Origin: Podospora anserina
Taxonomy: Eukaryota
Assembly (NCBI GenBank): GCA_017654855.1
Contig: CM030338.1
Coordinates: 2,232,001 to 2,296,000, forward strand
DNA: 64,000 nucleotides
Direction: 5' to 3'
Under the pieces are notes generated by a model. That model did not search any database and was not told where the DNA came from. It was given only the letters and a program-made list of their open reading frames with translations. A program made the position numbers and the translations under genes. Shown here one piece after another: positions 28,509 to 47,584 of the stretch. How positions within the stretch are numbered: position 1 is the stretch's first letter; every line of letters begins with the position of its first letter.

Positions 28509-28686
28509 ATGCATTAATGGCGAATATATGGGCGTTTTGTATCCCAAGGTGGTGTGTTTTCCATGGATTGTTTCTGCGTGAGAGCCCAAAATCAAGATGC
28601 TTTTGGGATTCTACATGTGATGAAGATGCGAAAGGCAACATAAGTTGAAACGCAGACACCTTATTCCATCCAGTAGGAGATCACAA

Positions 28687-28758
28687 GGTTGTATAGTGTA
28701 GCGGTTAGCACCCCAGATTCTGATTCTGGTAACCCCGGTTCGATTCCGGGTACGACCT
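28687..28758 (+). tRNA. tRNA-Gln (anticodon CTG), intronless, 72 nt
   Basis: Acceptor GGTTGTA/TACGACC; anticodon arm CCAGA-TTCTGAT-TCTGG; T arm CCCGG-TTCGATT-CCGGG; T-run terminator just downstream. Confidence 0.96.
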
Positions 28759-31070: not shown

Positions 31071-31198
31071 GGCCAGATGGCCGAGCGGTCTAAGGCGCCA
31101 CGTTAAGGTGAAAATCTTGATATCAACTCCACATTCGCTAGGATGTGAGAAGTTCCGTGGTCTCGTAAGGGGCGTGAGTTCGAATCTCACTCTGGTCA
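31071..31198 (+). tRNA. tRNA-Leu (anticodon AAG) with 46-nt intron (31109-31154)
   Basis: Acceptor GGCCAGA/TCTGGTC; D arm GCCGAGCGGTCTAAGGC; anticodon stem CCACG/CGTGG with TTAAGG then the intron; long variable arm; T arm GTGAG-TTCGAAT-CTCAC. The mature length of 82 nt fits a class II tRNA. Confidence 0.95.
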
Positions 31199-44400: not shown

Positions 44401-45539
44401 ACCTCAATCTGAACAGTTTTGGATTCTTGGTCGACAGCATGAAGATTAACAGGACGATCATCGACTTCCCCTTCACCCCCAAGGAGCGCGCCGACATTTG
44501 GAAGAATGTCCTCAAGGGCCTTCGTCCAGGGCCACGCCCACCTCAGGCCAAAACTGGTCTCCACTTGGGCAAAGATAAAAAGCACAAGGATAAGAAGGAC
44601 GACAAGGACAAGCAGCCTGCGCTTCAGCCCGACGTACAGGAAACTGCTTTGTGGACCATCTTGGAGAAGCAGTTCAGGCAGCTGGACGAACACATCGAGC
44701 GCAACCGCGAGCTTCTCGAGGCATCATCCGGCCAGGTCTTTGATTTCGAGTCCCCAGCCTCCACCCCTATCGACGCCGGACAGGCGGGCGGTGGTTTCAA
44801 TGCTGGTCCTGCTGGTGCAAGCGAGTGGCCTACCCTTCTTGATCTCGAGTTCGACATGGGCACCATCGACCTGAACGACAGCACCACCCCTCCACCTGCG
44901 GTTGCCGGCCCTGTAGGCGAGGCAGTTGCTCATGACGGGACAATCCTTTTGCAGTCCAGCCCTGACCCGAAATCCACACCCGCGGCCGAGGCCCCCAAGA
45001 AGGAGAAACACAGGCCACCCCCTCTCATCCGTCGGAAGACTGTCCGTTCCTCTGCCCTGGACAAGGAGTCCCGGGATGAGCCCCCACCGACACCTTCCTA
45101 CTCCTTGATCGGCCACGTCGGAGTAGGCAGCACAATGTTGAACGCTGCACCCGACTATCCCCCTCCCCCCCCTCCTCCACCCCCCGCCATGCTCGCGGCC
45201 TTTGCCGGGGTCGAGTCACCAACTGATACCCTCGACCCAGTCTCGGAGGTTGAGACGCCAGGGCCGGATGAGTTGCTGCCTACAATGGCTGAGCTTCACT
45301 TTAAGAACTATAACAACATTAGCGTGGCCAACAACATCAATATCACCACCGCTACCACCAAAACCAACACCACTATCACCACGACAACCATCACGCACAG
45401 CAGCAGCACTAGCACGAACAATAGCACTAGGGGTCATAGGTCTACCCCGTCAAATCAGAGTATGGACGAGGAGGAGAAGTTGAGGGAGATGTTGAGTCAG
45501 TATAGGGGAGGATTTATGTTGGGGGGGTTTACTGACTGA
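41427..45539 (+). CDS. Large RNI-like leucine-rich-repeat protein, CARMIL-like, with Pro-rich tail (~1333 aa); exons 41427-42580, 42638-43104, 43159-45539
   Basis: The 391 and 974 aa ORFs join via intron 42581-42637, with an in-frame intron at 43105-43158. Repeated LxxLxLxxN/CxL units; ALRYNDYFNSLSFKD segment; PPPPPPPP tail. Confidence 0.8.
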
Positions 45540-46017
45540 TTTTTTTTTTTTGGGGGGGTTGTTTTAATTTGTTTTGGTGGGGGAAGCGGAGGTTGTTTTG
45601 ATATAATATGAGGACAAGCAAAGGGCACATAACATAGTATATAGAGGGGTATAAATGGCAACATAACAACACGCATATATATTTGGAATTTGGAAGGGTT
45701 GGAGGTTTAGGACAAGGAAGTTTTGAATCATTCAGTGTTCTTTTTTTTTCTTTATCATCATTTGGCATGGCAGAGCAGAGCATGGGAGTGGATTTCATCT
45801 TGGGGGGAATGGTTGTTGTAAGATATAAGGGGATGATGGAGAGGTTGATACCCTATAGAGGATAGTCAATATTGAGTTTATTTCCAAACATGTAATGTTT
45901 GTCTATCTCGGTCGTCTTGTGTCTTTTGTTATATTGAGAGCTTGTGTTGTTATGGTACTCTTCACAGAGCAGGTGCTCCTTCCTCTAATAGCCAGTCATG
46001 CCTTCTTTGAGCATTGT

Positions 46018-46090
46018 GCCTTCCTCACCTGGTCGCTCTTGCCTTCCTCACCTGGTCGCCCTTGCCTTCCTCACCTGGTCGCTCTTGCCT
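46018..46090. repeat. 23-bp tandem repeat, about 3.2 copies (GCCTTCCTCACCTGGTCGCTCTT)
   Basis: Three head-to-tail units with a single T/C difference and no spacers. Confidence 0.92.
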
Positions 46091-46141
46091 CACAATTCGC
46101 TCCTGGGGTTATGACTTAAAATTTCGCAGCAGATAATCACC

Positions 46142-46282
46142 AGAGGTTTGGCGCGGCGGTGTGAGGATAGGCTATACAACCTGGTGATGTCCTGCTCCCA
46201 AATTCTGGTAAGGAGGAATGCGGTAACTGGCTGGAGGCAACTTCCACAGGTTCGTTTCCAGACAGGAGTGCTGAACTCTTTT
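46142..46282 (+). ncRNA. Putative Pol III-transcribed small ncRNA, copy 1 (~140 nt)
   Basis: AT-rich TTAAAATTT about 25 nt upstream; A-box-like TGGCGCGGCGG at 46149; B-box-like GGTTCGTTTCC at 46249; TTTT at 46279. 5' AGAGGTTTGGCGC pairs with 3' GTGCTGAACTCT. Paralogous to copy 2. Confidence 0.55.
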
Positions 46283-46451
46283 GAGTCTTTCCCCATTACA
46301 CACACAATCAGTCCTGCCTCTTCATTGAAAGTCGTTCTTTCCTCCCCATGGCAAACAGCCAAAGCCTTCACTCCCACCCCACCACCGCTCCCTTCACCAC
46401 ACAGCCCGCTCCCGGATTTATAATTTTAAATTTTGCACTCGACAATTCACC

Positions 46452-46595
46452 GGAGGTTTGGTGCAGTGGTATTTACGAGGGACGCCTGAGTATTACTACT
46501 ATTGACCGATCCTTCCGGGGGATATTAAGTGGTACCACCTACTTCCAGCCAACTGACGGGTTCGAGTCGAGGTTGGGACACTGAAACTCTTTTTT
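46452..46595 (+). ncRNA. Putative Pol III-transcribed small ncRNA, copy 2 (~140 nt)
   Basis: TTATAATTTTAAA 22-34 nt upstream; A-box TGGTGCAGTGG at 46459; B-box GGTTCGAGTC at 46559; T6 terminator at 46590 followed by further T-runs. 5' GGAGGTTTGGTG pairs with 3' CACTGAAACTCT. Confidence 0.65.
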
Positions 46596-47005
46596 ATTTT
46601 TAATTTTTATTTTTTTATTCCCCCCCTTCTTTGTGTTGACTTCCACTCATTTCCTTTAGACCATTTCATTGCAACTAGCAGCTTGACTTGTTTAATATTA
46701 TTACTTGCCACCATCAAGTAGCTCTTCTTGTATTAACCTTTGCCTGTGATGTGTCCTTTGGGTGTTGGTATCATGCCTTCATTTCGACCTTGGCTCTGAC
46801 CCAATTCTAAATTGATGTCCAACACCAACGAGCCAAAGCATCATCATCCATCCGCTACACCCGTAGTTTTGATGATCCTTTCTTTCCCCCCTTTGACAAT
46901 ACCGTCCTCTCATTCTTCCCTCAACCACGGCTTTTATTCCACTTCTCCTTTGCCTTTCACAACCCCAAATCCCATATTCCTCCCCCATCTCCCTTTCCCG
47001 AACCC

Positions 47006-47584
47006 TCACATCAACCCCCTAACAAACTGATCCAGCCCCAACTCAAAAAGCTCATTCCTCACCCCCTCACCCCCCTTGTGTTCCACCGGACTGAGCGGGT
47101 TCTTCACCACATACTCCACCCACAGGTTGATATATATCTGATGCAGCACATTCCGCATGCTCAGCGTCGCCACGTCAGTCAGCATGACGAACCGCAGATT
47201 GGAGGCTGTCTCGTAGTAGTGGAGCTTGTACTGCGCGGTTCGGTAACTGATGAAGGCGTCGTCGGAGCCGCCGAGTTTGCGGACCATGTTTCGGAGGGAG
47301 AAGACGGTGCCAAAGATTAGTTTGGCGTTGTCGGAGGATTGTTTTTGGGTGAGGATGCTGGAGGTGGGTTGTTGTGGTGGTTGTTGTGGTGGTTGTTGGG
47401 GGTGGGAGTGGGTAGGGGGGAGGATGTCGGTGGAGGAGGCGGCGGGGGGGGGGAGCCAGGATTTGGAGTAGATGCATTCCGCTGGGGAGAGGTTGTTAGC
47501 AATATATAAGGGGCAGGGAGGGAGGGGGGGGGGAAGGGGGAACGCACTGTGCCGGTCGAATATGTAGAAGGAGTAGACGACCAT
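47006..47584 (-). CDS. BET5: TRAPP complex subunit Bet5/TRAPPC1 (sybindin family, 170 aa); exons 47584-47548, 47481-47006
   Basis: MVVYSFYIFDRH|TECIY...AKLIFGTVFSLRNMVRKL...YRTAQYKLHYYETASNLRFVMLTD...LWVEYVVKNPL. Intron 47547-47482 (GTGCGT..GCTAAC..CAG). Confidence 0.93.
   Translation of the reverse strand: MVVYSFYIFDRHSAFPLPPPLPPCPLYIANNLSPAECIYSKSWLPPPAASSTDILPPTHSHPQQPPQQPPQQPTSSILTQKQSSDNAKLIFGTVFSLRNMVRKLGGSDDAFISYRTAQYKLHYYETASNLRFVMLTDVATLSMRNVLHQIYINLWVEYVVKNPLSPVEHKGGEGVRNELFELGLDQFVRGLM

What the first reader, a model, noticed from the sequence alone, without database searches (positions are those of the whole stretch)
46110..46600. Tandem pair of non-tRNA RNA polymerase III units with a conserved panhandle: candidate undescribed small ncRNA family
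Seen in sequence: two units 310 bp apart, between the convergent LRR and BET5 genes. Their 5' regions align (ttaaaatttcgcagcagataa-tcaccAGAGGTTTGGCGCGGCGGT vs tttaaattttgcactcgacaattcaccGGAGGTTTGGTGCAGTGGT). In both, the A-box begins 7 nt into the unit and the B-box (GGTTCGTTTCC / GGTTCGAGTC) begins exactly 100 nt after it. Both end in CTGA(A)ACTC plus a T-run 30-31 nt after the B-box start, although the interiors are barely alignable. The 5' and 3' ends form an 11-12 bp stem, where a C-G pair in copy 1 is T-A in copy 2 and a G-U is G-C (compensatory change). Each also has an internal arm (AGGATA/TGTCCT; GAGGGA/TCCTTC) and a hairpin around the B-box. Established: A-box, B-box, upstream AT-rich element and oligo-T define type 2 Pol III genes. 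This panhandle layout recalls vault RNAs and adenoviral VA RNAs, and Neurospora milRNA precursors are Pol III products. I see no U6, 5S, SRP, RNase P/MRP or canonical box C (RTGATGA) signature, and no T-arm or acceptor pairing as in tRNA. Inference: a duplicated, structurally constrained ~140-nt RNA (milRNA precursor, tRNA-derived regulatory RNA or young SINE).
Basis: partly seen in the sequence, partly recalled or inferred. Interest (0 to 1): 0.85.

Follow-up and report, generated by a model that had tools for sequence, protein, structure and literature searches.

The report
Twin tRNA-like Pol III units, unproven
Two neighbouring ~140-base stretches in a fungal intergenic region carry all the sequence signals of tRNA-type RNA polymerase III genes without being tRNAs, but nothing yet shows that they make a structured or conserved RNA.

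Summary
The sequence observation holds. Units U1 (46142-46282) and U2 (46452-46595) lie 310 bp apart on the + strand. Both have a TATA-like element at about -34 to -18, an A box at +8, GGTTCG exactly 100 nt later, CTGAA 16 nt after that, and a T-run 30 or 31 nt after the B-box start. They are not tRNAs and match no Rfam family.

The "structurally constrained RNA with a conserved panhandle" reading is not supported:
- Folding z-scores are -0.87 and -1.25.
- The end-to-end duplex is matched by 6.5% (U1) and 14% (U2) of genomic 16-mers.
- In U2 the panhandle pairs have probability of at most 0.05.

The pair sits in an old ~310-bp tandem duplication. The spacer, promoter and ends still align, but the ~85-nt interiors are unrelated. 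U1's interior holds an inverted 25-nt copy (22/25) of the 5' flank and start of the tRNA-Gln gene 17.5 kb away, which suggests DNA patchwork.

No relative turned up in one metagenome pattern scan, or in 80 fungal BET5 loci from a second scan. No whole genome was available, and no RNA evidence bears on the units. BET5's mRNA overlaps U2 antisense.

Best reading: orphan tRNA-gene-derived Pol III units, probably lineage-specific, with unproven function. Interest is modest.

The parts
45990..46600 (+). Old tandem duplication of about 310 bp that carries both units. The spacer, promoter and unit ends align. The unit interiors do not.
   Evidence: Global alignment. Segment tests against 1000 shuffles: far-upstream spacer z 3.9 (1 of 1000), near upstream z 10.5 (0 of 1000), 5' end z 6.1 (1 of 1000), 3' end z 4.8 (2 of 1000), downstream of the terminator none (838 of 1000).
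46142..46282 (+). Unit U1, a putative ~138-141-nt Pol III transcript body.
   Evidence: CM R1 gives 152.5 bits, but this is a training sequence.
46452..46595 (+). Unit U2, a putative ~139-144-nt Pol III transcript body.
   Evidence: CM R1 gives 156.8 bits, but this is a training sequence.
46109..46124 (+). AT-rich TATA-like element of U1, at -33 to -18.
   Evidence: Read. It lies in the best-conserved block between the copies (z 10.5).
46417..46434 (+). AT-rich TATA-like element of U2, at -35 to -18.
46149..46159 (+). A-box-like motif of U1 (TGGCGCGGCGG).
   Evidence: Regex scan. The A-box consensus used for comparison is recalled, not taken from a call.
46459..46469 (+). A-box-like motif of U2 (TGGTGCAGTGG).
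46249..46259 (+). B-box-like motif of U1 (GGTTCGTTTCC). It has T where tRNA genes have the conserved A after GGTTCG.
46559..46569 (+). B-box-like motif of U2 (GGTTCGAGTCG).
46279..46282 (+). T4 run ending U1. The window's two real tRNA genes also have T4 as their first T-run.
46590..46595 (+). T6 run ending U2. It opens a T/A-rich tract that runs to 46619.
46172..46196 (-). Inverted 25-nt fragment inside U1. It is 22/25 identical to the tRNA-Gln(CUG) gene's 5' flank (-15 to -1) plus its first 10 nt (window 28672-28696).
   Evidence: Local score 35, reached by 0 of 2000 shuffles and 0 of 1822 genomic 138-mers. First seen with blastn-short, E 0.026.
46480..47008 (-). Presumed 3' UTR of the BET5-like gene (stop codon at 47006-47008). 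It overlaps the 3' part of U2 in antisense.
   Evidence: Contigs of 4 'RNA?' runs from 3 studies run from 46480, 46503, 46515 or 46517 rightwards (two unbroken to 47300, two in pieces, with gaps at 46586-46628 and 46942-47075) (table 8). Strand and exact end are inferred, because contigs show neither.

Best explanation
The two units are orphan Pol III-type transcription units derived from tRNA genes. They sit in an old ~310-bp tandem duplication between two convergent protein genes. Each copy keeps an upstream TATA-like element, an A box at +8, a B box at +108 and a T-run. TFIIIC, TFIIIB and Pol III can therefore plausibly assemble and make a ~140-nt RNA that ends in U's. That step is inferred from sequence and has not been shown.

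The copies share only the promoter-bearing ends and the flanks. The ~85-nt bodies are unrelated, and U1's body includes an inverted scrap of a tRNA-Gln gene flank. The body therefore looks like replaced or patchwork DNA, not a conserved structured domain. Any function would lie in transcription or factor binding, or in the short complementary ends, not in a conserved fold. I read them as lineage-specific, weakly constrained or unconstrained Pol III units, not as a demonstrated new structured ncRNA family.
For: - All four Pol III signals are present in both copies at identical spacing.
- A generic scan for A box + GGTTCG + T4 finds 3 sites in the 64-kb window (tRNA-Gln and the two units). It finds 0 in 366,962 bases of 80 other fungal loci.
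- T4 is also the first T-run behind the window's two true tRNA genes.
- The units are not tRNAs and match no Rfam family.
- Homology between the copies covers the spacer, promoter and ends but not the interior.
- U1's interior holds an inverted tRNA-Gln flank fragment, reached by 0 of 2000 shuffles.
- Structure statistics are weak.
Against: - No transcript, Pol III occupancy or TFIIIC occupancy has been shown.
- U1's B box departs from the tRNA norm at one conserved position.
- Both interiors have exactly the same length (88 nt between the 5' block and GGTTCG). That is unexpected for unconstrained or replaced DNA and hints at a length or shape constraint.
- Identity peaks at -45 to +19 (48/63, against about 63% in the far spacer). 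That fits mild selection on the promoter and 5' end, and so some function.
- The 5' and 3' ends outside the boxes are conserved and mutually complementary in both copies.
Confidence: 0.5

Rival explanations
1. A genuine, undescribed family of structured ~140-nt Pol III RNAs. The ends are conserved and form a panhandle, and the centre is variable, as in vault RNAs, Y RNAs or the rodent tRNA-derived 4.5SI and BC1 RNAs. The RNA would act through a protein bound to the paired ends, with the variable centre giving specificity.
For: - There is no Rfam or tRNA hit.
- The ends are conserved and the centre is variable and of identical length.
- A 12-bp (U1) or 11-bp (U2) end-to-end stem can be drawn, with one double change and one G-U to G-C change.
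- In U1 the stem pairs have probability 0.95-1.0.
- Promoter-region identity is higher than spacer identity.
Against: - Only two sequences exist, and no relative was found.
- Panhandle duplex energies are within reach of 6.5% and 13.9% of genomic 16-mers.
- U2's ensemble prefers another fold.
- Folding z-scores are -0.87 and -1.25.
- The double change is two transitions, and one pair is lost.
- U1's centre contains a scrap of tRNA-Gln flank.
- Vault particles are described as missing in fungi (PMC3762200, passages).
Confidence: 0.2
2. Inert debris. A tRNA-derived pseudogene was duplicated in tandem and later scrambled by repair events. It is neither transcribed nor bound, and its Pol III motifs survive only because the duplication has not yet decayed fully.
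For: - The 3' block identity (25/38) equals the far-spacer identity, so no selection need be invoked there.
- The interiors are unrelated, and U1 carries an inverted tRNA-Gln flank scrap, typical of filler DNA.
- There is no structure signal.
- The presumed BET5 mRNA runs through U2's T-run and B box. A stably bound TFIIIC might be expected to hinder that (inference).
Against: - Both copies retain every one of the four signals at identical spacing, despite roughly one-third divergence in the spacer.
- Identity is highest over the TATA-like element and the A box.
- The interiors have equal length.
Confidence: 0.25
3. Two copies of a young tRNA-derived SINE or another dispersed repeat.
For: - The 5' end is tRNA-like with A and B boxes.
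- Fungal tRNA-related SINEs exist (PMC5063351; search listing and abstract only).
Against: - Homology continues about 150 nt upstream of the units, and the copies are in tandem register.
- There is no A-rich or LINE-like tail, since the units end directly in a T-run.
- No flanking direct repeats are seen.
- No other copy exists in the 64-kb window.
- The interiors are unrelated.
Confidence: 0.04

Closest known systems
Vault RNAs (Rfam Vault family)
   Same: Both are Pol III type 2 genes with internal A and B boxes and conserved 5' and 3' ends that can pair. Both have a variable centre and occur as clustered paralogues. The vault RNA properties are recalled, not taken from a call.
   Different: There is no match to any Rfam model, Vault included, even at E up to 10. 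The panhandle is not statistically supported. Vault particles are reported missing in fungi (PMC3762200, passages). The presence of a major vault protein in this genome could not be tested.
Lineage-specific small RNA genes with A/B boxes and a TATA-like box (rodent 4.5SI, tRNA-derived; 4.5SH, 7SL-derived)
   Same: Both have A and B boxes plus a TATA-like box at about -31 to -24 (PMC10137851; abstract in the search listing only). Both are short Pol III RNAs restricted to one lineage.
   Different: There is no sequence relation, and expression is unproven here. The A-B spacing is 100 nt, and the bodies of the two copies are unrelated.
tRNA genes and tRNA pseudogenes
   Same: The A-box and B-box motifs, the T4 terminator and the upstream AT-rich element match those of the window's own tRNA-Gln and tRNA-Leu genes. 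U1 contains a fragment of a tRNA-Gln gene start.
   Different: There is no cloverleaf. The Rfam tRNA model and ARAGORN, with and without introns, do not call the units. The 5' end pairs with the last bases before the T-run, not with an acceptor strand in tRNA register (read).
Neurospora crassa Pol III-transcribed milRNA loci
   Same: Both are intergenic Pol III products in a filamentous ascomycete. U2's 5' 65 nt can form an 18-bp interrupted hairpin.
   Different: milR-1 is described as having no A or B box and using TATA-like elements. milR-4 is cut from a tRNA-Ala precursor (PMC3547838, passages). Here there are no small-RNA data and no shared hairpin between U1 and U2.

Membership tests
tRNA (RF00005) | Cloverleaf scored by a covariance model or tRNA finder | tested here: not met
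   Rfam finds 2 tRNAs elsewhere in the window and none at the units. There is no tRNA match at E up to 10 in 46000-46700. ARAGORN makes no call by default or with introns at ps95, 90 and 85, which give 2, 10 and 52 calls in the window and none at the units. Only at ps80, among 158 calls, do two mis-registered calls overlap the units.
Type 2 Pol III gene (sequence definition) | Internal A box and B box, oligo-T terminator and, in many fungi, an upstream TATA-like element | tested here: met
   Both units pass the same regex scan as tRNA-Gln. There are 0 passes in 366,962 bases of other fungal loci. The motif consensus is recalled.
Type 2 Pol III gene (functional definition) | Pol III/TFIIIC occupancy and a transcript with the predicted ends | not testable with these tools
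   No listed run is on record as RNA. Contigs cannot show starts or ends.
Vault RNA | Match to the family model | tested here: not met
   No Vault hit at E up to 10.
Vault RNA | Host encodes the major vault protein and the RNA associates with vaults | not testable with these tools
   No whole genome is held. The literature says vaults are missing in fungi (PMC3762200, passages).
Y RNA, SRP RNA, RNase P/MRP RNA, U6, 5S rRNA, snoRNAs | Match to the Rfam models | tested here: not met
   The only snoRNA-type match is sR14 at 11.4 bits against a gathering score of 38, and it lies outside the units.
tRNA-derived SINE | Dispersed copies, target-site duplications, and an A-rich or LINE-derived tail | tested here: inconclusive
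   The tail and target-site duplications are not seen, and upstream homology argues against a SINE. Genome-wide copy number is not testable.
Structured ncRNA family (generic) | Conserved secondary structure with covariation, and folding beyond shuffles | tested here: not met
   z-scores are -0.87 and -1.25. The alifold consensus keeps only a 4-bp terminal helix and small hairpins. Only 2 sequences are available.

The most novel reading that the evidence does not exclude
A lineage-specific pair of Pol III 'cassette' RNAs in a filamentous ascomycete. A constant promoter-bearing frame (paired ends, fixed 88-nt cargo length) would carry interchangeable antisense cargo. U1's cargo is complementary to the 5' leader and first 10 nt of pre-tRNA-Gln(CUG). 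U2 is wholly complementary to the 3' end of the BET5 mRNA. The units would then act as Pol III-driven antisense regulators, or as TFIIIC/TFIIIB roadblocks that shape 3'-end formation of the convergent genes.
Probability: 0.12. Interest if true: 0.65.

Novelty: new member of a known kind. Interest (0 to 1): 0.3.

Why it matters
Filamentous ascomycetes have few documented Pol III products beyond tRNAs, 5S rRNA, U6, SRP RNA, RNase P RNA and some milRNAs. A verified non-tRNA type 2 gene pair would add a new lineage-specific small RNA. It would also give a handle on how tRNA genes are recycled into new RNAs. If the units are only relics, they are an ordinary by-product of tRNA gene turnover. Their main practical value would then be as a caution for annotation and as possible TFIIIC sites between convergent genes.

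Tried and rejected
- **Whole genome.** None is held, so copy number and an MVP/Ro60 search were not possible.
- **Sequencing runs.** No RNA holder is listed. 15 runs of organism A hold all sampled words, and 5 'RNA?' runs hold part of them.
- **Reads laid on 45300-47300 from 4 'RNA?' contig runs.** U1 is touched only by one 151-nt, depth-2.1 contig (46081-46231) that starts 61 nt upstream of the unit. The first 28-65 nt of U2 are uncovered. These blanks say nothing about expression.
- **Metagenome pattern scan** (5' 16-mer + GGTTCG + CTGAA): 0 matches.
- **BET5-anchored loci.** 80 were kept of 238 relatives.
  - The 5' motif with up to 3 substitutions gave 3 hits, none followed by a B box.
  - blastn found no similarity to the intergenic region; best E 0.45.
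  - The LRR-like neighbour was not found; best E 5.4.
  - The generic Pol III scan gave 0.
  - ARAGORN on 19 of the 80 loci found 0 tRNAs.
  - The 3' motif gave 0.
  - CM R1 gave only a 13-bit, E 0.92 noise hit.
  - These loci have 51-92% BET5 identity and no visible synteny. Their silence is therefore weak evidence.
- **Whole records behind the loci** are not held.
- **Earlier findings of this scan:** nothing for this genome, sequence or relatives. One unrelated algal note turned up.
- **Inversion of the interior** is rejected; 379 of 1000 shuffles do as well.
- **Readings tried by eye and dropped:**
  - C/D snoRNA: CUGA sits near the 3' end but there is no box C.
  - tRNA with a long or spliceosomal-type intron: no acceptor or anticodon stem is left after removal.
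  - MITE with terminal inverted repeats: homology extends beyond the ends.
  - SRP Alu domain.
- **Literature.** Five searches gave no paper describing such units in filamentous fungi. Supplements were not consulted.

Full report
**What is there**

On the + strand, between a long ORF that ends at 45539 and a BET5-like gene on the - strand, lie two units 310 bp apart. The BET5-like gene has its stop codon at 47006-47008 and matches Pfam Sybindin at E 1.9e-20. The units are U1 (46142-46282) and U2 (46452-46595).

They share these features:
- The 18-mer GAGGTTTGGYGCRGYGGT. The window holds 2 exact sites, 0.25 matches are expected, and 0 of 100 shuffles reach the 3 matches seen at up to 3 mismatches.
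- An A-box-like motif that starts at +8.
- GGTTCG exactly 100 nt after the A-box start.
- CTGAA 16 nt after GGTTCG.
- A T-run 30 nt (U1, T4) or 31 nt (U2, T6) after the B-box start.
- An AT-rich TATA-like element, at -33 to -18 in U1 and -35 to -18 in U2.

T4 is also the first T-run behind the window's two real tRNA genes.

A generic scan for A box + GGTTCG + T4 picks only tRNA-Gln and these two units in the 64 kb. It picks nothing in 366,962 bases of 80 other fungal loci. The Pol III type 2 layout is therefore real and not a chance pattern.

The 'LRR' label of the left neighbour is not confirmed by Pfam. There is only a faint PH_2nd_LRR hint at E 0.11.

**What it is not**

- ARAGORN calls one tRNA by default (Gln). 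With introns allowed it adds tRNA-Leu(AAG) with a 34-nt intron. It calls neither unit at the 95, 90 or 85% thresholds. At 80%, among 158 mostly spurious calls, two mis-registered calls overlap the units.
- Rfam at gathering score finds only the two tRNAs.
- At E up to 10 the 701-base region gives 4 matches of 11-17 bits to unrelated families. No tRNA, Vault, Y, SRP, RNase P/MRP, U6 or 5S match appears.
- In tRNA register there is no acceptor, anticodon or T stem (read).

**Structure**

- U1 has 4 + 8 bp with a bulged G.
- U2 has 4 + 7 bp with a G/A mismatch.
- One C-G becomes U-A, one G-U becomes G-C, and one C-G becomes C-A.

The stem is weak as evidence.
- Whole-unit z-scores are -0.87 (43 of 200 shuffles fold as well) and -1.25 (25 of 200).
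- The 16 x 16-nt end duplex is -13.1 kcal/mol in U1. It is reached by 32 of 2000 shuffles and by 6.5% of 1730 genomic 16-mers.
- The same duplex is -10.5 kcal/mol in U2, reached by 174 of 2000 shuffles and by 13.9% of genomic 16-mers.
- In U1 the eight inner stem pairs have probability 0.95-1.0. In U2 they have at most 0.05, because the 5' end prefers an internal partner. The forced panhandle costs +2.3 kcal/mol.
- The two-sequence consensus fold keeps only a 4-bp terminal helix.
- The 'compensatory' change is two transitions, in a pair of copies whose aligned ends differ mostly by transitions.

With two sequences this is not evidence of a constrained structure.

**How the copies relate**

The whole ~310-bp period is an old tandem duplication. 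Each segment below was tested against 1000 shuffles.

| Segment | Result | Shuffles reaching it |
|---|---|---|
| Far-upstream spacer | z 3.9 | 1 of 1000 |
| -45 to -1 | z 10.5, 33/45 identical | 0 of 1000 |
| 5' 18 nt | z 6.1, 15/18 identical | 1 of 1000 |
| 3' 38 nt | z 4.8, 25/38 identical | 2 of 1000 |
| ~85-nt interior, forward | no similarity | 692 of 1000 |
| ~85-nt interior, reverse complement | no similarity | 379 of 1000 |

Ungapped, a 75-nt core of the interior (46166-46240) matches at 16/75.

So the 3' block is no better conserved than the spacer. The promoter and 5' end are somewhat better conserved. The striking feature is that the interiors are unrelated yet of equal length.

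U1's interior carries, on the - strand (46172-46196), a 25-nt stretch that is 22/25 identical to the 15 nt upstream plus the first 10 nt of the tRNA-Gln gene at 28687. The local score is 35, reached by 0 of 2000 shuffles and 0 of 1822 genomic 138-mers. The match runs well into the gene's flank. I therefore read it as DNA-level patchwork (filler or templated insertion) and not as selected antisense. That reading is an inference.

**Surroundings and RNA data**

No listed run is on record as RNA. I laid four runs guessed to be RNA, from three studies. Their contigs start at 46480, 46503, 46515 and 46517 and extend rightwards towards and into BET5 (two unbroken to 47300; two in pieces). This is a weak hint that the BET5 mRNA has a ~490-525-nt 3' UTR ending inside U2, antisense to its 3' 75-110 nt. 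Contigs show neither strand nor true ends.

The T/A-rich tract after U2 (46590-46619) would read as an A-rich signal on the BET5 strand.

**Relatives**

- No whole genome is held.
- A metagenome pattern scan found nothing.
- Eighty BET5-anchored fungal loci contain no unit-like motif, no similarity to the intergenic region, no LRR-like neighbour and no covariance-model hit.
- These loci are distant (51-92% BET5 identity) and show no synteny, so conservation in sister species remains untested.

**Comparison with known kinds**

The layout works like the tRNA-derived or tRNA-promoter-bearing small Pol III RNAs. Vault RNAs are one example (conserved box-bearing ends, variable centre, clustered paralogues; recalled). 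Rodent 4.5SI and 4.5SH are another, with A and B boxes plus a TATA-like box at -31 to -24 (PMC10137851, abstract in the search listing).

Membership in any of these families fails or cannot be tested.
- There is no model hit.
- Vaults are reported missing in fungi (PMC3762200, passages).
- N. crassa milR-1 lacks A and B boxes, and milR-4 comes from a tRNA-Ala precursor (PMC3547838, passages).
- A SINE is unlikely, because of the upstream homology, the missing tail and the unrelated interiors.

**Verdict**

The 'conserved panhandle, structurally constrained RNA family' reading is not supported by the tests possible here.

| Reading | Confidence |
|---|---|
| Orphan tRNA-gene-derived Pol III-type units in a tandem duplication, probably able to recruit the Pol III machinery, with a non-conserved patchwork body | 0.5 |
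| True new structured RNA family | 0.2 |
| Inert debris | 0.25 |
| SINE | 0.04 |

Interest is modest (0.3) until expression and conservation are tested.

Noticed in passing
window 46172-46196 (-) and 28672-28696 (+): A 25-nt stretch (22/25 identical) is shared, in inverted orientation, between U1's interior and the tRNA-Gln(CUG) gene's 5' flank plus first 10 nt, 17.5 kb away. It is far beyond chance: 0 of 2000 shuffles reach it. The three Pol III starts (tRNA-Gln, U1, U2) also share a TCAC-containing motif (ATCAC in tRNA-Gln and U1, TTCAC in U2) just upstream of +1.
   Followed up: partly
window 31071-31198 (+): A tRNA-Leu(AAG) gene with a 34-nt intron. Rfam finds it (42.8 bits) and so does ARAGORN with introns allowed, but default ARAGORN misses it.
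   Followed up: yes
window 46017-46090: A 23-bp minisatellite (3.2 copies, 96% matches) lies directly upstream of U1's promoter. The matching spacer before U2 has only a single degenerate copy.
   Followed up: partly
window 46480-47008 (-): Contigs of four presumed RNA runs suggest a long (~0.5 kb) BET5 3' UTR that ends inside U2, between its A and B boxes. If U2 is transcribed, the two RNAs would be complementary over about 75-110 nt.
   Followed up: partly
window 45540-45560: Long homopolymer runs (T12, then G-rich) sit right after the stop codon of the upstream ORF. The RNA contigs of all four runs break there (last covered 45443-45517, cover resumes 45558-45631). This looks like an assembly effect and not an intron.
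   Followed up: partly
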